In this document: piece after piece, positions 43,408 through 62,719 of the stretch
Numbering within the stretch: the first letter of the stretch is position 1
How the letters are laid out: every line of letters starts with the position of its first letter
Assembly (NCBI GenBank): GCA_963693055.1
Contig: OY843751.1
Location: 1,440,001-1,504,000 of the forward strand
DNA length: 64,000 nt
Direction of reading: 5' to 3'
Source: a bacterium
GTDB lineage: Bacteria > Zhuqueibacterota > Zhuqueibacteria > Residuimicrobiales > Krinioviventaceae
The notes under the pieces: generated by a model
Database searches by the model: none
What the model saw: only the letters and a program-made list of their open reading frames with translations
Told to the model about the DNA's origin: nothing
Translations under genes and position numbers: made by a program

Positions 43408-43484
<77 letters not shown>

Positions 43485-43516: not shown

Positions 43517-44563
43517 TTAATTTTCTTCATTTTTGTCGACTGCATCACCTTTTGCATCACCTTGTAATCTTTCACTTAATATTGATACAACTCTCGTTTT
43601 GTATTTACTGCTAACATGAGCATATCTTTCTACTAGCTTTAAATCACTCCATCGTCCTAACTCTTTTACAGTTAATAAATCAACTCCATTTCTGACCAAG
43701 ATAGTGGCAAAAGTATGCCGAAGGATGTGAGGCGTGCAATTTTTAATTGCAGCTTTTTTAATGATTCTGTTCCAAGCTTTTCTAATATCTTTATAAGGAT
43801 TTCCATCTGGTTTACTAATTACATATTCTGAAATTTGACTAAGACTTGACAGATGATTTGAAATAAACTCATTCATTGGGACGAGATCATCGCCTCCTTT
43901 TTTCGTGTCTCTTAATCTAATAAACGAGTCTTCAAAATTGACATCGTTCCATTTTAATGTTAACATTTCATGAGTTCGCAAACCAGCGTTTATTCCAAGT
44001 ATGACAAAGGTTTTAATTGCATTAGTGTCACAAGCATTTAATAATTTTATTGCTTCTTCTTCTGTTAAATAGAATAAAGCTTTTTGGGGCTCTTTATAAA
44101 ATTTAATTTTTTTAACAGGATTTTCTTCACAGTATCCATCTGTAATGGCATGATTAAATAAACTTTTTAAACATGCCATATCTCTATTAATTGTTGTTTT
44201 TGATACAACTTTGTTTCGTTGTCCACGATAATTTTCTATCTTTTTCCTGTCGATATCGCGAAGCTTGAAATTTCCAAAGAACGGTATCAGTTGATTTAAT
44301 GAGACCTGATATCTTCTGACACTTTTTTCTTTAAGATTATTATTTGCCCATTTTATAAAGAGCTTTGAATAATCTTTCATTAGAATTTGCTCATCTTTTT
44401 TAACTTGTTTATAAGTGCCTTCGTTGATTTGGGCCTTTATATTTTCAAGTTTTTTCTGAGCAACTCTCTTGTTCAAAGTTTTTGCGGACTTTGTATGAAT
44501 TTCACCATTATAAAAGAATCGCATCTGCCAATACTTTGAACCTGGGCGCTTAAAAACTCCCAT
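43517..44563 (-). CDS. int: Tyrosine recombinase / phage integrase
   Basis: N-terminal arm-binding domain; GLRTHE, TK, PHILRHTFAT, LGRW and ERYAH catalytic motifs. Confidence 0.93.
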   Translation of the reverse strand: MGVFKRPGSKYWQMRFFYNGEIHTKSAKTLNKRVAQKKLENIKAQINEGTYKQVKKDEQILMKDYSKLFIKWANNNLKEKSVRRYQVSLNQLIPFFGNFKLRDIDRKKIENYRGQRNKVVSKTTINRDMACLKSLFNHAITDGYCEENPVKKIKFYKEPQKALFYLTEEEAIKLLNACDTNAIKTFVILGINAGLRTHEMLTLKWNDVNFEDSFIRLRDTKKGGDDLVPMNEFISNHLSSLSQISEYVISKPDGNPYKDIRKAWNRIIKKAAIKNCTPHILRHTFATILVRNGVDLLTVKELGRWSDLKLVERYAHVSSKYKTRVVSILSERLQGDAKGDAVDKNEEN

Positions 44564-44640: not shown

Positions 44641-45291
44641 CTAAAGTTTGTCTGGATCAAATCCTTTTGATATTAACCATTCATCGATTTGACTTTTATT
44701 AAATTTAAGCCCCGCCTCATTTGTATGCGGAATTTTTCCTTTTGAAGTATAATTGTAGATGGTTCCTATTGATAGATTGGTATATTGAGCGACTTCTTTA
44801 ACAGTCATCCAGGTTTTGTTGTCGAGCGAGTGATTGTCTCTAATTTTTTTATTCATATACGTTTGAATAATTTTATCCATATTATCATGATTGGGATGCA
44901 ATATTTCCTCAATCCACATCGCATAGGGGTACCAAAAGAAATCATAATCTTTGTTGCCAATGATTTTCATTTTTTCATTATTGTCTAACTGCCAGAAGCA
45001 TTGGGACCAAAACAAAGAATCTACATCGATGAAGGATGAATTAATTTTTTGTATTTTTTTATAAATCAAAGATTTTTGTGCTTTCTGTCTAATAAAGGAT
45101 TTCAACAAGTGAAAAAATATCAAATCTATAAAGAGGTTGTAAGAAGATAGTTGATAACTGGCTTTGTTTTGAAAGATTTGTTTTAAAAAAATTTCTGTTT
45201 TTGTGATATCATTTACTATGGCATCTGCAGATACTGATCCCCCTAGATTCAGTACTTTTATTCTGTTCATAAGATATTTTTCTTCAAACAT
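44641..45291 (-). CDS. Excisionase-like HTH_17 protein with long unknown N-terminal domain
   Basis: C-terminal WMTVKEVAQYTNLSIGTIYNYTSKGKIPH...LKFNKSQIDEWL. Confidence 0.75.
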   Translation of the reverse strand: MFEEKYLMNRIKVLNLGGSVSADAIVNDITKTEIFLKQIFQNKASYQLSSYNLFIDLIFFHLLKSFIRQKAQKSLIYKKIQKINSSFIDVDSLFWSQCFWQLDNNEKMKIIGNKDYDFFWYPYAMWIEEILHPNHDNMDKIIQTYMNKKIRDNHSLDNKTWMTVKEVAQYTNLSIGTIYNYTSKGKIPHTNEAGLKFNKSQIDEWLISKGFDPDKL

Positions 45292-45306: not shown

Positions 45307-45338
45307 AAAAACAAAGCCCGATAGAAACTACCGGGCTT
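45307..45338 (-). terminator. Terminator after the SDH-like gene pair
   Basis: AAGCCCG...CGGGCTT hairpin followed by TGTTTTT on the minus strand. Confidence 0.65.
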
Positions 45339-45344
45339 GAATTA

Positions 45345-46130
45345 TTATTGAATTATCTGAATCCGATTTGACATTAACTGAGACACGACTACACCAAGAT
45401 AGTTAAATGCTTCATTTTCATTTTGTTTATAAAAACGTGCATTCAGACCCATCTTTTTTAAGGTTTTCAAATTAAACGCCTGCAATGCATCGATGCCTTT
45501 TACATAAATCAAGTGGTTTATAATTTTATCACTTTCACCATTGAAAATCTTTGTATTTTCGTCAAGAACTGTTTTCGCTGATTCTTTGGCATTAATATAT
45601 ATTTCTTTATAAATATCTTCGTTATACATTGGGGGAAATTCACCAGTTTGCTCAAGATATGTAAAAATTGCTATGTGCATAGTGGGGATATCTAGCGGAC
45701 CAAAGGATGTTGTTTCTCCACCGATGATTTCATCCATTCCCAGGCCAAGAATACAACCAGGACCTGTAACTACAGCAGGTACAATCCCAGTTAGTTTACT
45801 GTTTACTTTTGAACGAATTAAACTAACCATCTCTGCTGCTATCTCTAAGTCTCCAGCAACAACCTGGATTAAACAATCGAGGTCCTCAAATGACTGATCT
45901 GATAACAACGATTCTAAATCATCGAGGTGTTTCTCTGACAGCACTGAGGAACCCAGGACCATCGTTAACATCGGTCTTTTTCTGACCTTTACCCAGATAC
46001 TGGAACAATCTTCAAGTAATGAAGCTTCATCTGGTATATTCAGCCCATTTTCAATTGCGAATTGAAGCATCTCCTGCCCTTGTTCAGAATCAACTTTTAT
46101 TATTTTATTTATGTCTTTTTTTATTTTCAA
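45345..46130 (-). CDS. ClpP/crotonase-fold SDH (PF01972-like) homologue B, catalytic Ser and His absent
   Basis: DLDCLIQ..VPAVVTGPGCILGLGMDEII..FGPLDIP..LKKMGLNA aligns by eye with LDLILH..VPxxAMSGGTLIAL..DEIVM..LGPVDPQ..AKELGL; AGGAG RBS before the TTG at 46130. Confidence 0.65.
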   Translation of the reverse strand: MKIKKDINKIIKVDSEQGQEMLQFAIENGLNIPDEASLLEDCSSIWVKVRKRPMLTMVLGSSVLSEKHLDDLESLLSDQSFEDLDCLIQVVAGDLEIAAEMVSLIRSKVNSKLTGIVPAVVTGPGCILGLGMDEIIGGETTSFGPLDIPTMHIAIFTYLEQTGEFPPMYNEDIYKEIYINAKESAKTVLDENTKIFNGESDKIINHLIYVKGIDALQAFNLKTLKKMGLNARFYKQNENEAFNYLGVVVSQLMSNRIQIIQ

Positions 46131-46178
46131 CTCTTTACTCCTAGCCCAGATCAAATGACCTGGGCTTTGTTAGTTAAA

Positions 46179-47030
46179 TTAATTTTTATCATCCATACTA
46201 ATAAACCGTACATCCGGACTTTGAATAGAGTCCGGTTGTGCTGATAACTCGTATAAAGTGAAATCAAGATCTTCATCAGCACGATTCACATTAAAACCCA
46301 TCGCCTTTAACTCATCGAATCTAATGAATTGGTTCGGATTCGAAAACCCGGTGACCAGTTTCTTTGCGATTTCATCATTCTCCCCTGATACACAGTTCCC
46401 TATGTCCAGTGCTCTTTTTACAGCATCGATGGTCGCGTTAACAGAATCATAATTATTAGCGGTTTTCTCATCAATGACCTCGCTGGTTTCAGATACGAAA
46501 CTGGCAGCGATGTCCCAGGCATCCTTTACAGATACATTATCACCGCTGGCATCGATGATTCTACACTGTAACGTTTCGATGGCGTCAAATTGCAATTTGT
46601 TCACAACATTGAAACCATTTACAGAAAAGTGAGATATCGTTTTTTCACTATTCTCAGGAGTATTTGGATCATAGCCAGGTGTAATTGGAGTAATTGACCC
46701 AAATGTTCCGAGGGTAATAGAGCTTGATGATAATGCGATTAAGCCAGACAATCTCACAAGAGGTGCTGGTATAATTACATGTAATTCATCCACTGATTTC
46801 TTCAGAATTTCAAGTGTCTGCGAAATTACATCGTAATCCGAGTCATTTGCCTGGATTAAAAGATCAAGTTTCGCTAGTTCGATGCCATGTAAACTGTTAT
46901 ACATCGAATCTACTGTACGCCAATTGATGCCGGACTTTCCGCACATGATTGAGAGTAAGGGGGTTTGTCTTGCATCAGCTATGCTGCGCAAGCCTAATTG
47001 AACTGAGTCTGGTTGTAACATGTTTTTCAT
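46179..47030 (-). CDS. ClpP/crotonase-fold SDH (PF01972-like) homologue A, catalytic residues absent
   Basis: KLDLLIQ..LHVIIPAPLVRLSGLIALSSSSITLG..ITPITP..IAKKLVTGFSNPNQFIRFDELKAMGFNV; AAGGAG RBS. Confidence 0.65.
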   Translation of the reverse strand: MKNMLQPDSVQLGLRSIADARQTPLLSIMCGKSGINWRTVDSMYNSLHGIELAKLDLLIQANDSDYDVISQTLEILKKSVDELHVIIPAPLVRLSGLIALSSSSITLGTFGSITPITPGYDPNTPENSEKTISHFSVNGFNVVNKLQFDAIETLQCRIIDASGDNVSVKDAWDIAASFVSETSEVIDEKTANNYDSVNATIDAVKRALDIGNCVSGENDEIAKKLVTGFSNPNQFIRFDELKAMGFNVNRADEDLDFTLYELSAQPDSIQSPDVRFISMDDKN

Positions 47031-47079
47031 GTTAACTCCTTGAGTTTTATAAATATTTATGAACCTTATTGGCTCTCAT

Positions 47080-47110
47080 TTATAAATACAAGGAGAGTTC
47101 ATTTTTTTGG
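47080..47110 (-). promoter_or_regulatory. Putative alternative-sigma promoter, copy 1 (upstream of SDH pair)
   Basis: Minus strand CCAAAAAA-N12-TGTATTTATAA; same boxes and spacing as 47902-47932. Confidence 0.55.
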
Positions 47111-47131
47111 TATTTTTTTTTGGGTTTTTAC

Positions 47132-47160
47132 AAAAAAAATGCCCGATATGTATCGGGCAT
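47132..47160 (-). terminator. Intrinsic terminator after sigma-factor gene
   Basis: ATGCCCGAT-atgt-ATCGGGCAT followed by a T-run on the minus strand. Confidence 0.8.
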
Positions 47161-47171
47161 ATAAAAGGGGG

Positions 47172-47888
47172 TTATTTGATGATTTTGGAGAGGGTTGCAA
47201 TCATTTCCGGACTTAGTTGGTTCATAACATTCTGAGTGATGCGTTTGCTGGCATCACTAGATTGAATTTCAGCTTTAAACATATCAGTGAATAATGAAAA
47301 TAATCCAAAGCCGAACATCGGTACAGTTGCAGAAACATCTTTGAGATATGGTTTCTTTTTAATCATTTTTTTATATTTTCTCTGAACCCTTCGTTTGATG
47401 TCATATATTTTTAAATTAGTAATCTTCATCCTTTTTGCCATTTCAGAAAATATTTTTTTAGATTCCTCTTCAGCAACTTGTAAATAGATTTCAATGAATT
47501 TTTTCTCTTCTTCATTTAATTCTTTTTTTAGTTCATTTAAGATCAAGTTGTTTGATTCTTTTGATTCATCAAAAATTATCATATCATCATCCTTAATTGA
47601 TTCAAGTTCTTTTTTATTTTTATCATCCTCTTTGGGTTTTTTACCATGATATGTATTTATTTTATTGTATAGTGACCTAAATAAATAGTTCTCAAAGTAA
47701 CCCTCGGTATTTTGGAATTTTTTTACAAGTTCTTTGTCTTCATTAATTTTCTTTAATACACTAAACATTACATTTTGGACAACATCTTCAGCATCTTGTT
47801 TGTTTTTAATACTGAAATTTGCCCTGGCCAGCATCTTTTCATTAATTTTTAGTAAACGTTCTTCCAAAGTAAGAGATTCATGCGCCAA
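47172..47888 (-). CDS. ECF-like sigma-70 factor with C-terminal extension
   Basis: Sigma2 motif KNKQDAEDVVQNV...FENYLFRSLYNK; sigma4 LNEEEKKF...SEMAKRMKIT..KIYDIKRRVQRK; AAGGAGG RBS before the TTG. Confidence 0.75.
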   Translation of the reverse strand: MAHESLTLEERLLKINEKMLARANFSIKNKQDAEDVVQNVMFSVLKKINEDKELVKKFQNTEGYFENYLFRSLYNKINTYHGKKPKEDDKNKKELESIKDDDMIIFDESKESNNLILNELKKELNEEEKKFIEIYLQVAEEESKKIFSEMAKRMKITNLKIYDIKRRVQRKYKKMIKKKPYLKDVSATVPMFGFGLFSLFTDMFKAEIQSSDASKRITQNVMNQLSPEMIATLSKIIK

Positions 47889-47901
47889 ATTGGCCTCCTT
47901 A

Positions 47902-47932
47902 TTATAAATACACTGATATTGTTGTTTTTTGG
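47902..47932 (-). promoter_or_regulatory. Putative alternative-sigma promoter, copy 2 (upstream of sigma gene)
   Basis: Minus strand CCAAAAAA-N12-TGTATTTATAA immediately before the RBS. Confidence 0.55.
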
Positions 47933-47942
47933 CAAAAAAGTT

Positions 47943-49106
47943 TTATTTACAGTTAAAAATTTGGACAGTTGCTTGACCAAGTCTATTATATATACTAGTA
48001 CTATTTGGTGATGATTTTTCTGTGTATTCAATCGAATCTTTTATTTTCGGAATTTTATCCAAAAACCGTAACAAGATATGTTTTTTAATTGCATAGTTTA
48101 CATTTTGAGATTTCGACATTATTGAGAATATAACACCTAGTAGTCCCCCGGTTTCTTTATCAACCAATGGTCCACCGGAATTCCCCGGTTGAATAGCTGC
48201 ATCAAATTGAAAACTTCTTATATCATCCTGATAACCTGAATTGGAACTGACGATGCCTTGTGTTACTTTGGGAGCAAATCCTTGTGAATCAGGCTGTGGA
48301 TACCCGTATGTTATAACTTCCATACCCAGTTCAGTGTCATCAGTACTAAAATGTAAGCCAATAGATTTTCGATCAATTTGTAACAAGCACAGGTCATAAG
48401 ATTGGTCGCTATAAATTACAGTTGCATTGTAAAAGTGGTTTTGACTCAGAACAATAATTTTATTACTATTTTTTATTACATGGTGATTTGTAATTATGAA
48501 ACCTTCGTTGTTAATGAAAAATCCAGTGCCAAAACTATTTAATTTATTTTCATCTAACATTTCTTCAATTATGAATTTGATATATATTACATTAAAAGTA
48601 TCCGGTGGGAGCTTAAGAGTAGTGATTGCATCTTTGATTGCATCTTTTTCGATTTCACAAAAATTTCCATCTATATGAGCTAATGACAGTAGAAACATTA
48701 TGAAGTTTCTGCTATAATCAACATTATAGTCTATTAAATTTCCATATATTGTAACATAGTCGATAAAAGTTGCATTGTCGTTTATAACATTTTCATAATG
48801 ACTACAAAAATAATTCATTGCCTCGTCATTAAGTTCCAAGCCATCACGTAGGAACTCAACAATTATTTTTATTTCTGAATCACTGACATCACCATCTATG
48901 TTGTTTAATTTTGCCATGCAAGCAATCAGGCATAGAATTGAAGCTTGGTTTTCCCCCAAGTCCTCGAGTTCTTTTTTCTTACTTGATTTTAATACTGATA
49001 AAAGTGCAACAGTAATAATTGTGCCGATTGGACCAATCAATGCACCACCTGTGAAACCTACTGCTCCAGATAAAATCAATCTTTGCCATGATTTCATTTC
49101 ATACAC
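47943..49106 (-). CDS. Membrane-anchored TerB (DjlA-like) domain fused to trypsin-like S1C serine protease
   Basis: Gly-rich TM GAVGFTGGALIGPIG; TerB repeats AK..NIDGDVSDSE and LAHIDGNFCEIEK; protease GTGFFI..IITNHHVI..YDLCLL..IQPGNSGGPL with intact triad. Confidence 0.85.
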   Translation of the reverse strand: MYEMKSWQRLILSGAVGFTGGALIGPIGTIITVALLSVLKSSKKKELEDLGENQASILCLIACMAKLNNIDGDVSDSEIKIIVEFLRDGLELNDEAMNYFCSHYENVINDNATFIDYVTIYGNLIDYNVDYSRNFIMFLLSLAHIDGNFCEIEKDAIKDAITTLKLPPDTFNVIYIKFIIEEMLDENKLNSFGTGFFINNEGFIITNHHVIKNSNKIIVLSQNHFYNATVIYSDQSYDLCLLQIDRKSIGLHFSTDDTELGMEVITYGYPQPDSQGFAPKVTQGIVSSNSGYQDDIRSFQFDAAIQPGNSGGPLVDKETGGLLGVIFSIMSKSQNVNYAIKKHILLRFLDKIPKIKDSIEYTEKSSPNSTSIYNRLGQATVQIFNCK

Positions 49107-49161: not shown

Positions 49162-50623
49162 CCAGTTGCCTCATAATAAAATGTAACCGTAGTTATTAGA
49201 GAGGAAAAAGGAATAATGAACAAGACTATCATAAGACTCTGTCCTTTCAAAAGCGTCTCCGCCCGTTTCTATCTGTCAGTGCGAAGATATCTAATAACTA
49301 CAGACCATTTTAATTAGGTAGCCCAAGGCCACCTTGCATAAAATATGAAGAATGTAAAATAAAACAAACGATATAAATTATTTTTGTAAAGCTGTTCTTT
49401 GAATACGATTAATTTTTTCAACCATAGTTTTTTGCAAAAAGAATGGATCAAGTGCGTGAAACTGTTTGGTTAATTTTGATTTGGTACTCTGATCAATAAA
49501 GTCAGATTCAACAAGCCGCTGGTAAGGAGTTTTGGGCTTGTCATATTTTTTGATAATTTTTGATCCGACGCGTTTTTTTTCGAGCAGCTTAACAGATGGT
49601 ATAAAAAAGTTAAAATACAAACGCCATTCCGTGGTGTAGAGTTGGTTCATCATATCAACAAGCTCGATTTCATCAAAACGCACATAGCCTAAATACTGCC
49701 GAACATGTGTCCAGTTTTTTTCTTCAATATGAGCATTGTCATTTTTCTGGTAAGCACGGGACCTTGTAAAGCGGATTGGTTTATCTCTATTTACAAAGTG
49801 CCCGTATAGATGCCAGTTTAAGAATTCGGAGCCATTGTCGCAATCAAAGCCGAGAAGTTTAAATGGCAGGGTATGCTCAATATTATCAATTGCTTGCAAT
49901 GTGCCTCGCTCACCTTTTCCCCAGATGGCGCGCTGTTCGGTCCAGCCGGTTGCGATATCAACAGTGTTGACAGTATAAACAAACTGTCCTTCAACTGAGG
50001 TGCCGCAATGGGCAACAGTATCCGCTTCGAGATAACCGGGCGTTGTCTCATCCCATTGATTGGTTTTTACAGGGATGTGCTTTTTGAGGATTGAACCTGG
50101 TTTGGTGGTGGCCAGTCCCCGTTTGGTAAATTTTGCACGGTTTGGCTTCATAAGTCGATCAATGGTTGCCGGTGATATTTGTAACAAATCGATTTTAACA
50201 CTATCGGATAGAGGGAATGGATAATGAGGCAACCAAATCGGTATAATGGCTTTTAAATTTTTAGAACAGGGAAGGTTGGTCTTTTTCCACAAGTAGACTA
50301 GTGTTTTAAGGATTTCTGGATCAGAGTATTTGACTTTACGCCCTCGTTTTTTATACGTGATATTGATTGTTGATTGCTCCCTGGCATTGAGGAGTCGAAT
50401 AGCATATTTTCGATTGTATTTGCATACAGCACAAAACTCGTCCAGTATTTTTTGTTTCTCTGTTTTGCTTGCTTTTTGATAGCGCATTTTGATTGAGGCT
50501 GCATATTCTTTTTTTGATTTGGGTCCCATAATTTATGTCTCCAAATAACTCTATAGTTACATAAATTATGAGGCAACGTCTATATTCCCATTTTCTCATG
50601 GTTACTTTTTTTATGAGTCAATG
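49162..50623 (-). mobile_element. Insertion sequence with rve-type DDE transposase (ISNCY/IS481-like)
   Basis: Inverted end motifs GTTGCCTCATAATAAAATGTAACC (49165) versus GTTACATAAATTATGAGGCAAC (50556) and GGTTACTTTTTTTATGAGTCAAT (50600); flanking CGTTTA direct repeat at 49156 and 50624. Confidence 0.8.
49378..50529 (-). CDS. Integrase-core (rve) DDE transposase
   Basis: LEADTVAHCG, DIATGWTE, DCDNGSEF and KNDNAHIEEKN motifs. Confidence 0.9.
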   Translation of the reverse strand: MGPKSKKEYAASIKMRYQKASKTEKQKILDEFCAVCKYNRKYAIRLLNAREQSTINITYKKRGRKVKYSDPEILKTLVYLWKKTNLPCSKNLKAIIPIWLPHYPFPLSDSVKIDLLQISPATIDRLMKPNRAKFTKRGLATTKPGSILKKHIPVKTNQWDETTPGYLEADTVAHCGTSVEGQFVYTVNTVDIATGWTEQRAIWGKGERGTLQAIDNIEHTLPFKLLGFDCDNGSEFLNWHLYGHFVNRDKPIRFTRSRAYQKNDNAHIEEKNWTHVRQYLGYVRFDEIELVDMMNQLYTTEWRLYFNFFIPSVKLLEKKRVGSKIIKKYDKPKTPYQRLVESDFIDQSTKSKLTKQFHALDPFFLQKTMVEKINRIQRTALQK

Positions 50624-50733
50624 CGTTTATTCCATTTTTAATAGAAAAATGTTGTTTTTAAAATATATTATTATTATCTTCATAATCAATAAAAATTATC
50701 AAACCTCAAACCGAAATCCCCTAATAAAAAAAC

Positions 50734-50762
50734 TTGACAAACCCCTGATGATAGGTTATAAT
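50734..50762 (+). promoter_or_regulatory. Consensus sigma70 promoter for replication operon
   Basis: TTGACA-17 nt-TATAAT exactly. Confidence 0.85.
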
Positions 50763-50807: not shown

Positions 50808-51098
50808 ATGAACAAAACAATCAAAATCGATGATTTTTATCTGGCGTCATACCTGATGACCTACGATGTATCATTAGTAGGGCATCGTCGCAGTGAAAAT
50901 CGCTCTACGTTTGAATTCAACGGTGATGACCTCGATGAACTCATCGACGCTTACTATGATGGTGATACGATGGTATCACCGATGCGCTACGCGAAAGCAA
51001 TAAGGAGCTTGAAAAATGTAATGTACAACTCTAACAACTATAACATCAAATCAACTTACAATAATGACAGCATCAGTGACAGAAAGGACAGCAAATGA
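50808..51098 (+). CDS. DUF5659-like small protein
   Basis: DDFYLASYL...STFEF...Y...VSPMRYAKAIRSLK; the ATG at 50808 is downstream of the promoter. Confidence 0.65.
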   Translation: MNKTIKIDDFYLASYLMTYDVSLVGHRRSENRSTFEFNGDDLDELIDAYYDGDTMVSPMRYAKAIRSLKNVMYNSNNYNIKSTYNNDSISDRKDSK

Positions 51099-53211
51099 TA
51101 TTTGCTACCTATATGTAGCAAAATCCAACAATGTTTATTCAAAACCTTCAGAAATAACATTTATTAAAACACGATGCGATGATGCATCGGCAATTTTTAA
51201 TAATACCTACAATGTAGTAGAAGACAACCAGTTTACTACTGTATTACCCTACGTAGAAGAAAACCCTCCCAAAAGATCTACAGAATACCTATCCTTCGAT
51301 GGTTGTATACAACCAGTGATACTAGAATTCGACAAATGTTCAATGGAACTGCAACAAGAACGGGCAGAGTTTCTAGCCGATGAGCTGAACACCCCGATGT
51401 TCCTGGTTCACTCGGGAAACAAGTCTTACCACCACTATATTTACTTTAAAAACTTTGCTGATAACAACGATGAATACAAGTTGCGTTGTAAACAATTCGT
51501 TGCATACCTGGCTAAAGAATATCCGGAATACTATGTAACAGAGCAGGATGCGAACAAAAATGTTGAATTGGTACCAGATTATTCAATGTTTACCGGAAAT
51601 CGTTACACCCGCCAAGCCGATGGAAAACGTGATAATGGCGTGAAGCAGGAAGCCTGGATATTGCATGATGTCGATGATTGCGATGCATTGAGCATTGATA
51701 TTTTCCTGAGTGATAACAATAGTTATAGTGGAGCTGAAACGGGCGATTCTGGTTTGGGATTGCCGATTGAGAAAAAGAAACCACGGAGATCAACATATGA
51801 ATTCCTAGCCATCGGTGCATCTGAGGGAGAAAGAGACAACCGATGCTACCAAGCTGCCTGCAACCTGCGAGAATGCGGATACTCGATGGAAGATGCGACG
51901 ATGATGCTTATAGAAGGTGGTAAAAGATGCACACCGGTTTTTCCTGAATCAGAAGTGAAAAATAAAGTCAAGTCCGCCTGGAGTAATACCAGGAATGGTG
52001 GGTATAATCCCATCGACAAGTCCAGACCGTTTCCGTTCATCGAGAGATCTACCAGTGACTACTTTTATGTGTTAGAGGATAGATTATATCAGGCAAAAAA
52101 AAGTGTGCTAAAGGATATTCTAAAATCTCACCACGTAGAGATGCCGGATCCATTGCCGGTATTTGAATTTAAATTTGATGTCAATGATGATACTCAGATT
52201 GACTTCTCGAACCGGACTTTTAATCTTTTTACACCTACGATGTACCACCTGATGAATCCCGATGGACAGCAACTTGATGGCAATAGGGACTTTCCTACGA
52301 TTAATAAATTACTTACAAATCTAATCCCGGTAGATAGCGAGAGGAACCATTTTCTCAACTGGCTTGCCTGTGCATTGCGGACCAGGAAAAAACTGATGAC
52401 GGCCTACGTTTTAAAAGGCGCCCAGGGTGCAGGCAAGGGATTGTTATTCGGGCGCGTATTTAAACCGATGTTTGGAGAAACCCAGACGATGCAGATTGAA
52501 GATGAGCAGCTTAAACAACCGTTCAACGGGTATCTGAAAAATGTATGTTTTATCGCATTTAACGAGGTGGCCCATGATAACAATGGCAGAAACTCGTTGA
52601 ACAGTAAGATTAAATCAATGATTACAGATCCTACGATTACAATCAATGAGAAATTTGTAAGACCTTTTGTGATTAATAACAACGCCAATTGTATCTTTTT
52701 CTCAAATGAGAGTGTGCCTCTGCTAATTGAACAAAGTGACAGAAGGTTCAATGTCGTTGAGACTGGAGATGCATTGACAAAAAACAATTGGTTTAATGCT
52801 GAAAAGACGATACCGATGCTAACGGCTGAGTTGAAGAATTTCGCTCAGTATCTATGGAACCTTGACATCAACATCGGGTTGGCTAACACTGCTCTTGCTA
52901 ACGATGTCAAGAATTCTTTGATCTCAGCATCGACGAACAGATTTCAAGAGTTTGCGATGAAGTTAAAGGAGGCTGACATTGAGTGGTTTATAGATAACTA
53001 TGAAGGCTATTCAACTATTGATGAGTGGACTCTGGACCAATTGAAAGATAAGAAAATAAGCAAGAATAAAGCTTTAGATTTATTTAAAGGGATATATCCG
53101 GATCAGAGGATTACGCAGACAAATCTCACTAAAAAACTAAGGTTATTTAATATCCTGGATGGGAGGGATAAGACTTTTAATAGAGAGAGGATATATTTCT
53201 GGTCAACTTAA
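51064..53211 (+). CDS. AEP-type primase + PriCT + SF3 (DUF5906-like) helicase replication protein
   Basis: ILEFD and HSGNKSYH primase motifs; GASEGERDN..AACNL PriCT; GAQGAGKG Walker A, AFNEV Walker B, FFSN sensor, DRRF. Confidence 0.88.
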   Translation: MTASVTERTANDICYLYVAKSNNVYSKPSEITFIKTRCDDASAIFNNTYNVVEDNQFTTVLPYVEENPPKRSTEYLSFDGCIQPVILEFDKCSMELQQERAEFLADELNTPMFLVHSGNKSYHHYIYFKNFADNNDEYKLRCKQFVAYLAKEYPEYYVTEQDANKNVELVPDYSMFTGNRYTRQADGKRDNGVKQEAWILHDVDDCDALSIDIFLSDNNSYSGAETGDSGLGLPIEKKKPRRSTYEFLAIGASEGERDNRCYQAACNLRECGYSMEDATMMLIEGGKRCTPVFPESEVKNKVKSAWSNTRNGGYNPIDKSRPFPFIERSTSDYFYVLEDRLYQAKKSVLKDILKSHHVEMPDPLPVFEFKFDVNDDTQIDFSNRTFNLFTPTMYHLMNPDGQQLDGNRDFPTINKLLTNLIPVDSERNHFLNWLACALRTRKKLMTAYVLKGAQGAGKGLLFGRVFKPMFGETQTMQIEDEQLKQPFNGYLKNVCFIAFNEVAHDNNGRNSLNSKIKSMITDPTITINEKFVRPFVINNNANCIFFSNESVPLLIEQSDRRFNVVETGDALTKNNWFNAEKTIPMLTAELKNFAQYLWNLDINIGLANTALANDVKNSLISASTNRFQEFAMKLKEADIEWFIDNYEGYSTIDEWTLDQLKDKKISKNKALDLFKGIYPDQRITQTNLTKKLRLFNILDGRDKTFNRERIYFWST

Positions 53212-53465
53212 GTAACATAAAAACAAAAGGTTGACCGATTTTGAAAAAGTTTGGTCAACTTTTTGGTTGGGTTAAGTCGTTGTTTTATATGGAATTGGTC
53301 AACTTGACCGGGTTTTTTAGAATTCTATAGTATATATATAACTCTATTTACCAAAACTTATTTAAAAAAAGTCAACCAAATTGACCAAGTGTATGTTTTT
53401 ATTATATATAAGTTGACCAACAAGTCGACTAAAAGTCAACCAGAAATTTAAAAGTCGACCAAGTT
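53200..53465. repeat. Iteron-rich putative replication origin
   Basis: About ten GGTCAAC/GTTGACC/GTCAACC/GTCGAC heptamers in both orientations around an AT-rich core, right after the primase gene. Confidence 0.7.
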
Positions 53466-53597
53466 TATGTTTTTAATGAAGATAAGTTGTAATTTGGTTA
53501 ATTAAACGGAGAACAAGCAATATGATAATTAACAATCCAGGTAACACACAAATAAACAAAAATTCAAAAACTTTAAACTACATAGGAGGCATTTAAT

Positions 53598-54813: not shown

Positions 54814-56677
54814 GTTTCAATTCCATATTGGTTCGATTAAGACTCAATCCTTTTTCTTTTTTTGCCCCTATATTGCAAATTTCAATTCCATATTGGTTCG
54901 ATTAAGACGTGATCTGGTACCGTATCAGGCCGATAGTGATACTTATTTCAATTCCATATTGGTTCGATTAAGACCATCAAGCGCCTGAAAAGAAATTGTT
55001 CGCCCAGAGACATTTCAATTCCATATTGGTTCGATTAAGACCGTCAGGAGCTGGAAAGATTCAAAGAGCTTGTAAAATTTCAATTCCATATTGGTTCGAT
55101 TAAGACAAATACAAAAAATTGCTTATTTTCCGACATAACAATATTTCAATTCCATATTGGTTCGATTAAGACGTTCAGGAAACCGCGGTGCAGTTGGGCA
55201 AGGCGTATTTCAATTCCATATTGGTTCGATTAAGACTGGGCTGGAAAACCAAAGACTTGCGTGGATTTTTATTTCAATTCCATATTGGTTCGATTAAGAC
55301 TGATGCAGGTAATGATTATACCTTGATACAAAATAAATTTCAATTCCATATTGGTTCGATTAAGACCGGTTCATGCTCGAAGTGAATCCAACATCATTTA
55401 GATTTCAATTCCATATTGGTTCGATTAAGACCCACCCAGTCTGGATGCCCATTGCGAATCCATTTTTTATTTCAATTCCATATTGGTTCGATTAAGACTT
55501 GATGCAGAGCTCGAACCCCTTGTTAAGGACACATTTCAATTCCATATTGGTTCGATTAAGACCCCGCATTCTGGGCAATTAAAATCTTTTAATCTCAATT
55601 TCAATTCCATATTGGTTCGATTAAGACCCGGATTACCCTCAAACCATCAGTCAAGTAAAAGCATTTCAATTCCATATTGGTTCGATTAAGACGAGTTTGG
55701 TGTAGGTGTTGCTGATTTGGCAATGAAATTTCAATTCCATATTGGTTCGATTAAGACGAAACAAACTGCTTTCCGGTCTCCGCCGAGGCTGTATTTCAAT
55801 TCCATATTGGTTCGATTAAGACGAAACGGTCAAACTTGCCCGTGTGGCAAATTCAATATTTCAATTCCATATTGGTTCGATTAAGACTTGACATTCTTGC
55901 ATAACAGATGTATTTTAGCCATATTTCAATTCCATATTGGTTCGATTAAGACCATTGCCTGGTTCGCACTGTCACGTTGGGTTTTTTATTTCAATTCCAT
56001 ATTGGTTCGATTAAGACACAATTGGCGGTCCATATACAAAAACTACAACCGTATTTCAATTCCATATTGGTTCGATTAAGACTTTTCAAGTTCACTGATC
56101 TTTTCTTCAACCTCCTGTATTTCAATTCCATATTGGTTCGATTAAGACAGATCGTGTAATTATGTAAAAGCGACATATTCTATATTTCAATTCCATATTG
56201 GTTCGATTAAGACCAACAATTAAAAGCAAAGAGCATATAAAAGATATATTTCAATTCCATATTGGTTCGATTAAGACTGGGAGATAACTCAAAGGCAGCA
56301 AATTACTATAACTATAAAATTTCAATTCCATATTGGTTCGATTAAGACGGTATGGGTATCGTCATAACGGTAATGCTGGAATACAAATTTCAATTCCATA
56401 TTGGTTCGATTAAGACTGGTACAAGAACTCCATCCACGCGTAGGTATTGTTATTTCAATTCCATATTGGTTCGATTAAGACCAATCGGCCCACACTCCGC
56501 CAGGTTCGATATGCGTTATTTCAATTCCATATTGGTTCGATTAAGACTTATCATTTTTTATAAACTGGTATTTCACACATTTATTTCAATTCCATATTGG
56601 TTCGATTAAGACAAACGTCCGGCGCTCAAATTCAAATGCGAAAAAATATTTCAATTCCATATTGGTTCGATTAAGAC
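54814..56677 (-). CRISPR. CRISPR array: 29 repeats, 28 spacers (34-41 nt); repeat GTCTTAATCGAACCAATATGGAATTGAAAT
   Basis: Counted directly. The repeat ends in ATTGAAAT on the minus strand; the trailer repeat at 54814 has one terminal substitution; the leader is next to cas2. Confidence 0.98.
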
Positions 56678-56777
56678 AACCCCTGAAATCGCTTAAAAAA
56701 CAGGGGCTTTGGGCCTCTGGTTTTGTCATTTCTATCGTCACTTTGCGGTACTGTAAAATCCCTGGGGGTGCGACGAT
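56678..56777 (-). promoter_or_regulatory. CRISPR leader (100 bp)
   Basis: Between the cas2 stop and the first repeat; contains a TCGTCAC...AAAATCCCTGGGGGTGCGACG motif like other I-B leaders. Confidence 0.7.
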
Positions 56778-57041
56778 TTATATAAATGTGTCTGTTGACG
56801 CCTTTTCCAAGCCCACAACCTGCTTTTCAAAGGCTTTTTCATTGCTCATTTTATATATCAGTACCGAATCTTTGTCCTTTTTCATAATGCCTTTTAATTT
56901 TTTGAGCAATTCCTTAAATTTTCCGTCTGTAAGCTCGCCTTCAAAGACGCTGTTTTGTACCCAATGTAAATAGGCGCGACAGATTTTAAGGGCCTTGGCC
57001 ACTCTTTTTTCTTCAATGTCGTACACTAATAGAATATACAT
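56778..57041 (-). CDS. cas2: CRISPR-associated endoribonuclease Cas2
   Basis: MYILLVYDI...YLHWVQNSVFEGE. Confidence 0.95.
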   Translation of the reverse strand: MYILLVYDIEEKRVAKALKICRAYLHWVQNSVFEGELTDGKFKELLKKLKGIMKKDKDSVLIYKMSNEKAFEKQVVGLEKASTDTFI

Positions 57042-57043
57042 AT

Positions 57044-58129
57044 TTACCACCACATTCGAAAGGCTTTATAGGGTTTAATGTTGGTAACGTGTTTGATGAG
57101 GCGATAGGCTTCGAGCCGGATGAGCCGGCGGTATGAGACATTACGTCCTAACGATCTGTGCTTAATGGTTGTTTTCATGCGCTCGTCATAGGCCTGCACA
57201 AAGATTTTTCGGCCTTCTTCATTCAGGTAACAAAAGTTGAGTTTTTCGTCAAAGTGTTTCTTTTTAAGGCTGCCCTGGTTAAGCAGTTTAAAGATGATCC
57301 GATCTACAATAAAGGGCTTAAAGACTTCGGCAACATCAAGGCTTAGGGAAAATCTACGCGCGCCGGGCTCGTGCAAAAAGCTAATAGCGGGATGGAGTTG
57401 TGTGTGATAGATTTCACCCAATGTGGTTGTGTAGAGCATAGAGTTGCCGAATGATATCAGCGCGTTTAGGGCGTTTTCGGGAGGTCTGCGGGTGCGGCGC
57501 TCAAAGGTGAATTCGGTTTCAATAATGTCATCCCAGCATTGAAAATAGATGGCCCGGATGCGTCCCTCAGCAGTCATGAGGTCGGTAATAGATTGGGTAT
57601 TTTTAACAACACCCAGTTCTTTGTGGATGTTGTCGATCCCGGCTTGCAGATTGCGTCCCCGGTTTTGGTAATACCGCAGGTTGTTGAGAATATTTTCGGC
57701 GGCGGCTGTTACAAACTCGCGCGCGATGTTCAGGCGTTTTGTTGTATCTATATAATGCTGCACCTGGTCAACAATCACTTGTCCGCTGATGAGATATTCG
57801 CGCGGAATCAGGCTTGAAGAGTAGAACCCGTAATAGTTGAAAAAGTGTGCTACGATGTGCTGCTGTGCCAGCATGTGGACGAGTTTGCTGTTAAATGTGG
57901 ATTCGCCGAAAAAGTAGATGGAATCTACATCTTCTATGGGGACAACGCGTTTGAGGACGCGGTCATGGTCGTCTTTATCGGCTTCGAATTCTGTGCTGTC
58001 TACGACGAGTTCTTCGTCAGCGTCAATGTCTGCCAGGGAGACGTCGTCGTTTTCTGCGCGTTCAAAAAAGAGGGTGTTTTGCTGCCGGCGGATACGTCCC
58101 GCGCTGAATATGTAATAGGGTCTTTTCAT
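57044..58129 (-). CDS. cas1: Type I-B Cas1 with acidic N-terminal insertion
   Basis: HFFNYYGFY, EGRIR..YF, RTRRPPENALNALISFGNS, SFLHEP and SLSLDVAEVFKP motifs. Confidence 0.96.
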   Translation of the reverse strand: MKRPYYIFSAGRIRRQQNTLFFERAENDDVSLADIDADEELVVDSTEFEADKDDHDRVLKRVVPIEDVDSIYFFGESTFNSKLVHMLAQQHIVAHFFNYYGFYSSSLIPREYLISGQVIVDQVQHYIDTTKRLNIAREFVTAAAENILNNLRYYQNRGRNLQAGIDNIHKELGVVKNTQSITDLMTAEGRIRAIYFQCWDDIIETEFTFERRTRRPPENALNALISFGNSMLYTTTLGEIYHTQLHPAISFLHEPGARRFSLSLDVAEVFKPFIVDRIIFKLLNQGSLKKKHFDEKLNFCYLNEEGRKIFVQAYDERMKTTIKHRSLGRNVSYRRLIRLEAYRLIKHVTNIKPYKAFRMWW

Positions 58130-58136
58130 GGTATAC

Positions 58137-58637
58137 CTATATATGACATAGTTCGTAATAGCTGCATTTACGGCATACTGTTATTTTCACAGTTATTGCA
58201 GGCGGTTTTGGTTTTTCTAAAATGTTGTTAATGTTTTGTATTGCAGTTTCGAGTTGTTTTTCTTTTTCCGCTGTCAGTTCAATATCTACGGTCCTTTTCA
58301 ATACCGGGTAATTGATTTGTCCTTTTAAGGGGTGAATGCCTTTATTTTTCAAAAGATATAGATAATAAAGCACCTGCCATTGGTGTGCGTGTTCAAAGGA
58401 TTTTGATTTTTTCACTTCATGCAGAATACCGTTACGAATATCAAAAAAATCGATTTTTATGTTATCTATTTCTATTTCTTTTTTCTCCCGATCATAGGAA
58501 TCATTGTGGATGAGTTTACCCTGATAGACGACATCGGATTCGTGCTCCATGGTAATATCCCGACCAAAGAGCCAAACCTGCCGATGGCAGTGAAAGTAGT
58601 AATTGATTAGTGTGCCTGTAATTTGCATGTAATTCAT
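58137..58637 (-). CDS. cas4: Cas4 exonuclease
   Basis: ITGTLINYYFHCHRQVWL, IKIDF..HEVKKS, QVLYY and CRKCSYYELC motifs. Confidence 0.96.
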   Translation of the reverse strand: MNYMQITGTLINYYFHCHRQVWLFGRDITMEHESDVVYQGKLIHNDSYDREKKEIEIDNIKIDFFDIRNGILHEVKKSKSFEHAHQWQVLYYLYLLKNKGIHPLKGQINYPVLKRTVDIELTAEKEKQLETAIQNINNILEKPKPPAITVKITVCRKCSYYELCHI

Positions 58638-58639
58638 TA

Positions 58640-60994
58640 TTAGAGAAAAGGATTATCTAATATCTCCTGGTATTCGTCAGTCATTCCTATTTCTTTATTA
58701 TATTTGCATTTAGCAACAACAACATAATTCCTTTTTATTGAATTATCTTTGTTAAAAATATCAATTGTTTTTATTTCAATTTGAGAACCTTGCGGATTAT
58801 TTTTCAATTTGAAATACATGCCTTTATGTATTGTTACTAATAATTCTTCTGCTCTGATATAGTCAAATTGTTCCAGGCATTGTTTGTAATCATTAAAAAA
58901 AAATGCTGGTAATACTTGTATACCTGTGAACTTTTCATAAAATTCATTTTCATTTTCTTTGTTTGCTGTGTATGGTTGTAAAGATTGTAAAGATGCCTGA
59001 AATGTTTTTAAGGTTAAATGAAACTCTTGTTTTTGTTCTGGTTCCCAATCTGGGTATACAGTATCTAACATATTTTGAACTTGAGATTCATAGATAAATT
59101 CAATTTTTTCGAGGACACTGATAGTGCGATTTACAACACTTTGAGGATAGATATATGAATCGTAGGGGCCCCCATTTCTACAGATGTAAACAGGGCAGGG
59201 GGGATTCAATCCCTTTCTATTTATTCTACCGAAACGTTGTAATAAAGCATCCAATGGTGCCGGTTCTGTAAACATAATATCATAATCAATATCCAGGCTG
59301 ACTTCAATCGCCTGTGTGCCTATCAAAATTTTTGTTTTTTTATCAAAGGCCTTTTTTTCATTATGAAAACGATCTTTAGCAATATAACGACTATGAATCA
59401 TATTAATTTCATCTTTATCAATTGAGCATTGTTGTAATATGGATTCATAAATTTTTTGGGCTCGTTGAACTGTATTGCAAACAATTATTATTCTTTTGTT
59501 TTGTAATATAATGTTATCAATTTCATTGAGAATGCTATAAATTTCGCCATCAATAATTTTAACATAATGCCTTGGATTTTTGTTTAAAAAATCAAGTTCT
59601 GGCTGAACAGGTGTAACTACATCTAATACTTTTTGCAATTTACGTAACATGAAATAAGGCAATGTGGCTGTCATTACCATTACGTTACAATGAAGATGAC
59701 TAATTAAAAATTTTAACATGACTAAAATTTGAGCAAAGGTTGAAGGATCGTAAGCATGTATTTCATCAAAGATTAGTTTTGCACCGGCTAATTGAGTTAT
59801 TCCAAGTTCAAATCCCTTAACACCATAGCAATACTTTAATATTTGAAAAGGTGTGATGACTTTTAGCGGATGGGCCAAACGTTTATATTGTTCCCGTAAC
59901 TTTTTAATTTCAATATTTCTTTTTAGTATAGGAGTATTTTCATAATACGTCGCAAGGTATTGTGAAAGTTTGCCATGTTGAATTCCGATAAAATCAGATA
60001 ATCCATTTTTTGTTAGCGGATCCATATTTTCAATCAGCCTTTTATGCATTGCATTTATTGATGCAGTAAAAGGCAGAATATAAAAAGCATGCCCTTGGTT
60101 TAGAGTTAATTGATTTTGTAGCCAACCAATTGCAGCCTCCGTTTTCCCGGAACCGGTAGGGGCAATTAGTAAACAATTTTTATTTTGTTTCATACAAACT
60201 TTTTGATGGTAAAATAAATCTTTACCTTTTGTTTGTAGCTTTTGTCTCATTTTGTAAATAAATTCAAAGTGTTTTTGACTCAGAGCTGGTATTTGAGTAA
60301 TTCCAGCTGAGCCATAATGGTCACATATTTTGAGACCTCCCCATAATAGCAAATTTTGCCAATAATCAATTGTATCAATTGGATATTGTTTAATCCGTTT
60401 AATAATAGTTTCATAAGGATGTTGTTGATTTGATAAAACAACTTTATTGTTCATATTGATATTTTGGAAACCATATTTTTTAGAAAGAATATCAAATTCA
60501 TCAATGAGGATTTTTAGACTTTTTATATCCAGAGATGATTGCAAATTATAAAGAAATTCCTCCGGATGATGTTGAAAACCCCTATCTTTGAATTTATATT
60601 CAAATTCAAACTCTAATAAATTTTTATCTTTATAATATTTACTTTGTAATATTTCATAATCTTTATGATGTCCGATAATTGTACGTTTTACGAGTAATCG
60701 TTGTTGTTCTTGTATATTTAATTTATCTACAAAGGGGATAGAATAAAGCTCATGTCTTTGTCCAAACCAATTATTGTTTTCTCCGGCAAGGTACTTTTGA
60801 AATTCTTTGTGCCCTTTACCAAAATCATGAAGATAAACTGAAATAAATAAAAGCAGCCAGAAATCATTATCTCCAAAAATATTTGTTAATTTTGGAATGG
60901 AATTTTGTAATTGTTTCCAGATAATGAGACAATCATTTATGTGCTGCTTTAGTGTAGTCCCATCAGATTTTGCATAAATCATTTTCGAGACCAT
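58640..60994 (-). CDS. cas3: Cas3 HD nuclease/helicase
   Basis: TLKQH, LHDFGK, HH, APTGSGKT, DEIH, MTAT, IHSR and QRFGRINR motifs. Confidence 0.96.
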   Translation of the reverse strand: MVSKMIYAKSDGTTLKQHINDCLIIWKQLQNSIPKLTNIFGDNDFWLLLFISVYLHDFGKGHKEFQKYLAGENNNWFGQRHELYSIPFVDKLNIQEQQRLLVKRTIIGHHKDYEILQSKYYKDKNLLEFEFEYKFKDRGFQHHPEEFLYNLQSSLDIKSLKILIDEFDILSKKYGFQNINMNNKVVLSNQQHPYETIIKRIKQYPIDTIDYWQNLLLWGGLKICDHYGSAGITQIPALSQKHFEFIYKMRQKLQTKGKDLFYHQKVCMKQNKNCLLIAPTGSGKTEAAIGWLQNQLTLNQGHAFYILPFTASINAMHKRLIENMDPLTKNGLSDFIGIQHGKLSQYLATYYENTPILKRNIEIKKLREQYKRLAHPLKVITPFQILKYCYGVKGFELGITQLAGAKLIFDEIHAYDPSTFAQILVMLKFLISHLHCNVMVMTATLPYFMLRKLQKVLDVVTPVQPELDFLNKNPRHYVKIIDGEIYSILNEIDNIILQNKRIIIVCNTVQRAQKIYESILQQCSIDKDEINMIHSRYIAKDRFHNEKKAFDKKTKILIGTQAIEVSLDIDYDIMFTEPAPLDALLQRFGRINRKGLNPPCPVYICRNGGPYDSYIYPQSVVNRTISVLEKIEFIYESQVQNMLDTVYPDWEPEQKQEFHLTLKTFQASLQSLQPYTANKENENEFYEKFTGIQVLPAFFFNDYKQCLEQFDYIRAEELLVTIHKGMYFKLKNNPQGSQIEIKTIDIFNKDNSIKRNYVVVAKCKYNKEIGMTDEYQEILDNPFL

Positions 60995-60996
60995 AA

Positions 60997-61662
60997 TTAA
61001 TCATAAATTTCCTGCCAATAAACATCCCATTCAAATTCTTTATTATCTAATATGAACTTGTCTTTTATACCCTTTGCTTTAACTTTGGTGTTATTTTGAT
61101 AATTAAAAGGTAATAAACAATATGGTTTTGTTCCTCTGTTCTGACGCGGAAAGGAATTGGTGAAATATATTGGAAGCGCTTGAATTTGTGATGGTAACGG
61201 ATATTTGACAAAAGGTATAATAGTTCCTTTAATTTTTTGTAATGTATCCATTTCCTTAACAAGCAATTCTGATATATTCCTAACAGTTGCAAGGTCGCTT
61301 GAACGGCCTAGCAATAAAGGGAAAAATGGGTTTTCAAATGCATTTTTAATTTCAATGCTGTCTGTATAAAGAATCAGATCAACATCATACAAGAATTCTC
61401 TTTTGACCACATTTGATTTTATTCCCGTAATAGCATTACCCATTTGATAGATGGTTTCAAGATCTGTCTGTTTTCCTTTTGAAGAAAAAACAAAACCCAG
61501 TTTTTCTTTTGTTACAATGAAATAATTTCCCATAGCGGCAGAAATTAATCCATTGATTGTCGACATTGGAGGAACAGGCAATGTCGGTTGAAATCCACTT
61601 ATCATATTCGGATATCGAAAGGAGGCAGTCCAACTTGTAATATGTATTCGATATATTATCAT
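60997..61662 (-). CDS. cas5: Type I-B Cas5
   Basis: WTASFRYP...PTLPVPPMSTINGLI; LLLGRSSDLA; likely start 61662. Confidence 0.92.
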   Translation of the reverse strand: MIIYRIHITSWTASFRYPNMISGFQPTLPVPPMSTINGLISAAMGNYFIVTKEKLGFVFSSKGKQTDLETIYQMGNAITGIKSNVVKREFLYDVDLILYTDSIEIKNAFENPFFPLLLGRSSDLATVRNISELLVKEMDTLQKIKGTIIPFVKYPLPSQIQALPIYFTNSFPRQNRGTKPYCLLPFNYQNNTKVKAKGIKDKFILDNKEFEWDVYWQEIYD

Positions 61663-61666
61663 GATC

Positions 61667-62710: not shown

Positions 62711-62719
62711 GATTCCTCC

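What the first reader, a model, noticed from the sequence alone, without database searches (positions are those of the whole stretch)
45345..49106. Candidate new system: TerB-trypsin protease + ECF sigma + two dead ClpP/SDH paralogues as satellite cargo
Seen: four co-oriented genes between int/xis and the primase operon. They encode an intact membrane-anchored TerB-S1C protease, a sigma factor with an extra C-terminal tail and its own terminator, and a separately promoted and terminated pair of SDH-fold proteins lacking catalytic residues. The sigma gene and the pair share one promoter motif. Known: satellites carry anti-phage cargo near int; protease-released sigma factors act in antiviral signalling (CalpL/T/S; Csx29/Csx30/RpoE); TerB domains and trypsins occur in conflict systems. 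Inference: a sensor protease activates the sigma, which amplifies itself and induces pseudoproteases as effectors, for example decoys or poisons of host ClpP or of phage prohead proteases. I know of no described system with this composition.
Basis: partly seen in the sequence, partly recalled or inferred. Interest (0 to 1): 0.85.

Follow-up and report, generated by a model that had tools for sequence, protein, structure and literature searches.

The report
Island-borne protease and tailed sigma switch
A rare mobile DNA island in uncultured bacteria carries a protease gene next to a sigma factor with an extra tail, and a private promoter-like DNA motif precedes the sigma gene and a changing set of downstream genes, including two dead protease look-alikes, so it is likely a self-contained alarm switch whose trigger and purpose (phage defence, stress response or island mobility) are untested.

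Summary
The four genes are real. The core, TerB-trypsin protease followed by an ECF sigma with a ~55-residue conserved tail, recurs in 3 of 167 genomes of the phylum; a fourth genome has the sigma at a contig end. The sigma lies near a tRNA-targeted integrase in those three. The exact quartet was seen only here. The shared motif, CAAA-N15/16-GT(A/C)T, is conserved across these islands. A matrix trained on other genomes scores 20 or more upstream of only 4 of 5,074 ORFs in this genome: sigma, sdhA, a second sdhA copy and a radical-SAM gene at the island's far end. Downstream genes vary: dead SDH, intact SDH, ClpP, radical SAM, unknown ORFs. SdhB is a small family lacking the catalytic Ser and His in 7 of 7 members, under purifying selection. 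The element is a ~60 kb island, not a shown satellite; the membrane anchor is not general. Most likely the protease clips the tail and the sigma drives itself and swappable, Clp-fold-rich cassettes (inferred). Anti-phage function has only neighbourhood support. New variant of protease-controlled ECF signalling.

The parts
43408..43484 (-). tRNA-Arg(TCT), integration target; its 5' 41 bases are repeated ~60 kb away (genome 1543205-1543245)
   Evidence: ARAGORN; BLAST
43517..44563 (-). tyrosine integrase, 53% identical to the G124 integrase
44641..45291 (-). excisionase-like HTH_17 protein with a 160-residue unknown N-terminal part
45314..45338 (-). terminator-like hairpin after sdhB
45345..46130 (-). 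sdhB: SDH/ClpP-fold pseudoprotease, 261 aa; member of a small family lacking catalytic Ser and His
46143..46166 (-). hairpin without U-tract between sdhA and sdhB, just before the sdhB ribosome-binding site
46179..47030 (-). sdhA: SDH/ClpP-fold pseudoprotease, 283 aa (R/T/P at triad positions); 95% identical truncated copy at genome 2234627
47082..47114 (-). bipartite promoter-like motif before sdhA (score 23.9)
47139..47160 (-). terminator-like hairpin after the sigma gene; similar hairpins follow the sigma gene in G124, G101 and G113
47172..47888 (-). ECF-type sigma factor, 238 aa, with conserved ~55-residue C-terminal tail
47904..47936 (-). bipartite promoter-like motif before the sigma gene (best score in the genome, 25.4)
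47943..49106 (-). TerB + HtrA-type (S1C) serine protease with intact triad and a DjlA-like N-terminus; likely start ATG 49097
49162..50625 (-). IS481-like insertion sequence (3 copies in the genome) inserted ~60 bases upstream of the protease gene; not part of the module
51064..53211 (+). primase-helicase (PriCT_1, DUF5906) of the divergent operon, preceded by a DUF5659 gene; island gene, not tied to the module in other genomes

Best explanation
The locus is likely a two-gene signalling switch on tRNA-integrated islands, in which the TerB-trypsin protease is predicted to clip the tail off the adjacent ECF sigma, which would then transcribe its own gene and swappable downstream cassettes from a private promoter motif. 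Shown: the protease-sigma adjacency, the conserved tail, the intact triad, the motif and its restriction to island genes, the terminator layout and the variable cassettes. Inferred: that the motif is this sigma's promoter (about 0.8); that the protease activates the sigma by cutting the tail (about 0.55); that TerB is the sensor. The output is rich in Clp-fold proteins (dead SdhA/SdhB here, intact SDH plus ClpP in G113) and includes a photoproduct-lyase-like radical SAM enzyme. I read it as an infection- or stress-induced protective programme of the island, in which the pseudoproteases would act by binding Clp-fold proteases or their substrates rather than by cutting.
For: Protease directly upstream of the tailed sigma in 3 of 3 genomes that have it, out of 167, beside two integrase types only 29% identical. 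Tail conserved in 4 of 4 at 26-36% overall identity, absent from 22 ordinary ECFs; no separate anti-sigma gene was seen in these loci. Motif matrix trained on 8 sites from other loci: the top four genome-wide hits lie before sigma, sdhA, sdhA copy 2 and the radical SAM gene; 4 of 5,074 ORF upstream windows score 20 or more. Controls score low: 21 ordinary ECF upstream regions at most 12.9, 9 unrelated SDH genes at most 9.3. An untrained site scores 23.3 in L052. The radical SAM gene occurs in 2 of 167 genomes, both with the sigma. SdhB pN/pS 0.14. The G124 module abuts DrmD- and ZacC-like defence genes; this island holds CRISPR-Cas.
Against: Only four genomes plus four short loci, two of them (L050, L052) near-identical. 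Training sites were picked after seeing this genome's repeat. The number of hits scoring 21 or more (4) is not clearly above shuffles (3 and 0); only their position is informative. Three of the four sites share ancestry. The reverse matrix missed both G101 sites. L051 has sdhB with no motif and no tailed sigma in its 19 kb. G101 has protease and sigma but no SdhA- or SdhB-like gene. No PADLOC match for sigma or SDH proteins. Nothing here shows cleavage, transcription or defence. An IS sits just upstream of the protease gene and may have cut it from its promoter.
Confidence: 0.45

Rival explanations
1. Mobility switch: the protease-sigma pair is the island's induction circuit, working like ImmA/ImmR of ICEBs1 (recalled) but with an activator. 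The sigma would drive the excisionase-like gene and integrase, and the SDH genes would be passengers in the same transcript.
For: The module sits a few genes upstream of an HTH_17 gene and integrase in G000, G124 and G101. In G124 no terminator-like site lies between the motif and the end of the integrase; in G101 none lies between the motif and the end of the HTH_17 gene.
Against: Here a terminator-like hairpin separates sdhB from the HTH gene and a sigma-70-like site precedes the integrase. G101 has a terminator before its integrase. No strong motif precedes the primase operon or other replication-type genes. G113 shows no integrase in the 24 kb downstream that was read.
Confidence: 0.2
2. 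Feedback loop: the Clp-fold proteins are regulators of the sigma rather than effectors. Intact SDH or ClpP would degrade it and dead ones would sequester it, as sigmaR induces the ClpP1/P2 that removes it, or as proposed for ECF115.
For: A Clp-fold gene is the first cassette after the sigma in 3 of 4 genomes. ECF115 pairs a ~70-residue tail with a Clp protease (PMC7826278 supplement passage); sigmaR feedback is described in the same paper.
Against: G101 has no neighbouring Clp-fold gene; L051 has sdhB without the sigma or motif; a second sdhA persists 0.75 Mb away in another island.
Confidence: 0.2
3. Looser cargo: the motif is read by another island or host factor, or the protease has a different substrate, and the genes are neighbours by shared descent in a few related islands.
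For: Small sample; no functional data; the looser pattern has several background matches per genome (7 in G085, which lacks the tailed sigma).
Against: The motif is non-palindromic, bipartite, with a 15-16 base spacer, and lies before the sigma gene itself in the 3 genomes where that DNA is assembled. It is not a housekeeping promoter (4 of 5,074). Adjacency has survived 60-70% protein divergence and a change of integrase.
Confidence: 0.15

Closest known systems
ECF115 group (Bacillales; PMC7826278 supplement and PMC8999054, passages read)
   Same: ECF sigma with a ~70-residue C-terminal extension, no anti-sigma, and a Clp protease gene nearby; proteolytic control proposed but untested.
   Different: ECF115 is 100% Firmicutes with predicted ATC/CGT promoters. 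Here the motif is CAAA/GT(A/C)T, the conserved partner is a TerB-S1C protease, the Clp-fold genes sit behind the motif and are often dead, and the module is on integrative islands.
CalpL-CalpT-CalpS of type III CRISPR (10.1101/2024.05.08.593097, abstract and outline read); Csx29/Csx30/RpoE (recalled)
   Same: A protease releases an ECF-like sigma in an antiviral setting.
   Different: Those need a cyclic-oligonucleotide or RNA trigger and a separate anti-sigma. Here there is no SAVED/Lon or CHAT domain and no separate anti-sigma; the linked CRISPR genes look type I, not type III.
Trypsin-like protease-effector defence modules: MBL, Pepco, EACC1 (10.1101/2025.11.14.688446, passages read)
   Same: A sensor-fused trypsin-like protease lies next to its presumed substrate.
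   Different: Their substrates are toxic effectors; here the presumed substrate is a transcription factor with its own regulon. The TerB sensor did not appear in the passages returned.
SDH family Clp-fold serine proteinases (PF01972, NF047768)
   Same: Fold family by Pfam, ESM Atlas and alignment.
   Different: SdhA and SdhB score below the cut-offs and lack the Ser and His; the ClpP-like inactive subunits ClpR (recalled) are an analogy only.
PICI satellites (PMC10085698, passages read)
   Same: Integrase, HTH regulator and primase-helicase at a tRNA, with cargo between them.
   Different: About 60 kb against a median of 9.5 kb; no terminase or capsid gene among the ORFs scanned; carries CRISPR-Cas, type II secretion/pilin and RHS genes.

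Membership tests
ECF sigma factor | regions 2 and 4 without region 3 | tested here: met
   TIGR02937 covers residues 11-175; alignment with 22 ECFs; SigR region-2 hit E=0.0014; helical model. Structure search could not be run.
ECF sigma factor | bipartite promoter before its own gene | tested here: met
   Motif upstream of the sigma gene in G000, G124, G101; recognition itself not testable
ECF115 | C-terminal extension about 70 aa, no anti-sigma | tested here: met
   Tail about 55 aa; no anti-sigma seen in loci
ECF115 | Bacillales host and ATC/CGT promoter | tested here: not met
   Motif CAAA/GT(A/C)T; host labelled KSB1 by earlier notes (not re-tested)
ECF115 | sequence match to the group HMM | not testable with these tools
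   ECF group models are not in the libraries
CalpL/T/S or Csx29/30/RpoE | SAVED-Lon or CHAT protease plus separate anti-sigma in a type III CRISPR locus | tested here: not met
   Protease is TerB-trypsin; no such PADLOC hits. The G101 sigma has only a sub-threshold hit to the type III-E sigma model (28.5 vs 100 bits).
S1C (HtrA-type) serine protease | His-Asp-Ser triad with GNSGG | tested here: met
   H209, D238, S310 invariant in 13 of 13; no PDZ domain hit
Active SDH protease (PF01972) | Ser-Asp-His catalytic residues | tested here: not met
   R/T/P in SdhA, G/D/A in SdhB; S/D/H in 35 of 40 others
PICI satellite | integrase, regulator, primase-replicase | tested here: met
PICI satellite | small terminase or capsid-morphogenesis gene; size under about 28 kb | tested here: not met
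   att repeat 60 kb away; no such hit among the window ORFs, 22 island ORFs against Pfam and 11 against PHROGs, of 43 listed with some duplicates
Known anti-phage system (PADLOC) | component models match in a cluster | tested here: not met
   Only generic trypsin-domain and HTH hits
Anti-phage system (functional) | protection in phage challenge | not testable with these tools
   needs bench work

The most novel reading that the evidence does not exclude
A one-step antiviral alarm not tied to CRISPR: a TerB-sensing protease frees a sigma from its own fused anti-sigma tail, and the sigma switches on plug-in cassettes spread over several islands of the genome, among them a conserved family of dead Clp-fold proteins that jam phage prohead or host Clp proteases.
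Probability: 0.2. Interest if true: 0.87.

Novelty: new variant of a known kind. Interest (0 to 1): 0.66.

Why it matters
It gives a compact, directly testable case of a sigma factor likely controlled by cleavage of its own tail by a dedicated cytoplasmic protease, with the promoter already defined; by the review passages read (PMC8999054) that mode has been shown experimentally for very few ECFs. It also defines a conserved pseudoprotease branch of the little-studied SDH family (6 papers held any of five family names, none about it by title). If the output is anti-phage, it would extend protease-sigma immune signalling beyond type III CRISPR. The sigma-promoter pair could also serve as an orthogonal, protease-gated switch.

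Tried and rejected
Complex prediction of sigma with SdhB gave no answer (score 0.00). The single-sequence SdhA model was unusable (pLDDT 34.8). Structure searches with the sigma model could not be run because the machine was busy, so the tail's fold is uncompared. Word-index protein searches with SdhA and sigma found only this genome's proteins; a profile search with the sigma alignment in that database could not be made, so the sigma family may be wider than four. No sigma or SdhB relative in viral contigs, no sigma in phage records, no SdhB in plasmids. The 41 and 80 viral loci with trypsin domains had no sigma or SdhB hit. The G020 sigma hit fell inside an unrelated 1,152-aa protein and was dropped. 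No Rfam match in 9 loci. No RNA holder listed. Contigs from one study cover the genes and show no convincing excision joint. No PDB sequence hit for the SdhB profile. The SDH tree is a quick tree; SdhA and SdhB group at only 84 support. One search compared overlapping alignments and is uninformative. A housekeeping-promoter reading of the motif was rejected. Paper searches listed nothing describing this module; the library lacks most subscription papers, bioRxiv supplements were not seen, and the ECF supplement was cut when stored.
Full report
Observation. The four minus-strand ORFs exist as described. The first is a TerB domain fused to an HtrA-type protease, with a weak DjlA-like N-terminal match (E=1.7e-4). 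Ten further full-length clusters exist, and the triad is invariant in 13 of 13 aligned. A strongly hydrophobic N-terminal segment is present here and in one other (mean hydropathy 2.12 and 2.04), moderate in two (about 1.75) and weak in the rest, including G124; 'membrane-anchored' is not a family property. The second is an ECF-type sigma: it aligns with 22 ordinary ECFs over regions 2 and 4 and then runs on about 55 residues; the model has pLDDT 80.9, with 93-95 in the last 28 residues. The last two are SDH/ClpP-fold proteins, 23% identical over 98 residues. In an alignment of 49 SDHs, 35 of the 40 outside these two groups keep Ser-Asp-His; SdhA reads R/T/P, and all 7 SdhB-family members have Gly for Ser and no His. 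SdhB shows pN/pS 0.14 in one pair; SdhA against its copy 0.46.

The element. The integrase abuts tRNA-Arg(TCT), whose 5' 41 bases recur at genome 1543205-245, about 60 kb away; no such repeat was found near the end of the primase operon. Between lie the module, an IS with three genomic copies, the primase operon, a CRISPR array with cas genes, type II secretion/pilin genes, RHS genes and a radical SAM gene. No terminase or capsid hit came from the ORFs scanned (22 and 11 of 43 listed). By the PICI criteria in PMC10085698 (passages) this has three core genes and six times the median size: an integrative island, not a shown satellite. The primase has one close homologue in 167 genomes (G121), which sits at a tRNA-Phe with no module beside it.

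Conservation. Among 167 genomes of the phylum, the tailed sigma was found in four (35 other genomes gave only weak ordinary-ECF hits). G124: TerB-trypsin, sigma, sdhB, two unknown ORFs, HTH_17 fusion, integrase, then a fragment I read as the 3' half of tRNA-Arg; upstream lie DrmD- and ZacC-like genes. G101: TerB-trypsin (N-terminus short or broken), sigma, a 150-aa ORF, HTH_17, integrase, tRNA fragment; no SDH. G113: contig end, sigma, intact SDH, ClpP, radical SAM. The protease family was found in exactly G000, G124 and G101, always directly before the sigma. The radical SAM gene was found in G000 and G113 only. Other loci: L049 has the end of a G113-type SDH, an ORF, then sdhB; L050 and L052 (near-identical) have two ORFs, sdhB, radical SAM; L051 has HTH_17, sdhB, integrase near a NACHT gene, without sigma. 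So the quartet is unique to this genome in what I could search; the protease-sigma pair is the constant. The G101 integrase is only 29% identical to this one, against 53% for G124.

The motif. A terminator-like hairpin follows the sigma gene in all four. A matrix from the 8 non-G000 sites ranks four G000 sites first: sigma 25.4; sdhA, sdhA copy 2 and radical SAM 23.9; next 20.8. Of 5,074 ORF upstream windows only these four reach 20. Controls: 21 ordinary ECF genes at most 12.9 (one of 22 too short); 9 unrelated SDH genes at most 9.3; L051 sdhB 6.3. An untrained site in L052 scores 23.3. Against: the sites were chosen after seeing this genome's repeat; shuffles gave 3 and 0 hits at 21 or more against 4 real; the DNA before radical SAM and before sdhA copy 2 is homologous (85% over 745 bases), so G000 has two or three independent sites; a matrix from G000 sites ranked the known sites first in five loci but missed both in G101; the loose pattern also matches 7 places in G085, which lacks this sigma.

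Mechanism. Shown: adjacency, tail, triad, motif, layout, variable cassettes. Inferred: a non-palindromic two-block motif with a 15-16 base spacer before a sigma's own gene is the usual form of an ECF promoter (established knowledge), so the sigma likely drives itself and the cassettes (about 0.8). With no separate anti-sigma seen, the tail is the likely brake and the constant neighbour the likely release (about 0.55). Basic residues after the hydrophobic segment suggest a cytoplasmic protease (inference). What TerB senses is unknown. The output is rich in Clp-fold proteins, live or dead, with a photoproduct-lyase-like enzyme. I favour a protective programme induced by infection or stress (0.45). 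Rivals: a mobility switch (0.2; the motif-led unit runs into HTH_17 in G124 and G101 but is terminated here), feedback on the sigma by the Clp-fold proteins (0.2), looser linkage (0.15). The IS upstream of the protease may have altered its expression in this strain.

Comparison. ECF115 has a ~70-residue tail and a Clp protease neighbour but is Bacillales-only with a different promoter (PMC7826278 main-text and supplement passages; PMC8999054 passages). CalpL/T/S uses a separate anti-sigma and a cyclic-nucleotide trigger (abstract). Trypsin-effector modules cut toxic effectors (passages). PADLOC gave only generic trypsin and HTH hits for the module. It works like protease-released ECF signalling but meets the membership tests of none. 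Ten paper searches (listings and abstract starts) showed no description of this module, within the library's limits.

Verdict. Real, conserved at its core, apparently undescribed and easy to test; rare, and without direct evidence for defence. New variant of a known kind; interest 0.66.

Noticed in passing
genome G000:C1:2170000-2236000 (L001, L008): A second island with a paralogous type II secretion/pilin cluster, RHS genes, about 20 tandem genes for related secreted proteins, an integrase remnant and a truncated sdhA copy with its motif, ending at an IS end.
   Followed up: partly
genome G000:C1:1519441-1539973 (L002-L004): Type II secretion/pilin operon with sigma-54 activator directly followed by a 1,619-aa RHS protein and likely immunity genes inside the 60 kb island; pairing seen twice in the genome.
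   Followed up: no
window 54814-63999 and beyond: CRISPR array (30-bp repeat) with cas2, cas1, cas4, cas3-like and further cas genes inside the island; subtype not tested.
   Followed up: no
window 19738-43452: A second tRNA-Arg repeat (3' half, 42 bases at 19738-19779) bounds a ~24 kb island of TonB-receptor, ABC and methyltransferase-like genes on the other side of the same tRNA: tandem islands.
   Followed up: partly
window 53200-53490: Cluster of short inverted and direct repeats after the primase gene, origin-like.
   Followed up: no
window 50734-50762: Perfect TTGACA-17-TATAAT site before the DUF5659-primase operon.
   Followed up: no
L018:40-125 (G101): About four 21-base direct repeats upstream of the TerB-trypsin gene, iteron-like.
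   Followed up: no
L052:1127-2384, L050:276-1323, L049:340-834: Unannotated ~162-aa ORFs, a tandem pair behind the motif in L052; no Pfam, PADLOC or PHROG hit for those scanned.
   Followed up: partly
L218 and L053:1-7146 (G124): Defence-like cluster (AAA, UvrD, DrmD-like, ZacC-like, DUF697 and a HExxH protein) directly upstream of the module.
   Followed up: partly
L057:1480-2625, P0035, P0038: Other SDH proteins with Gly at the catalytic Ser, outside the SdhB family: inactivation recurs in this family.
   Followed up: no
genome G000:C1:5147000-5159200: Third cluster of RHS fragments sharing DNA with the island's right end.
   Followed up: no
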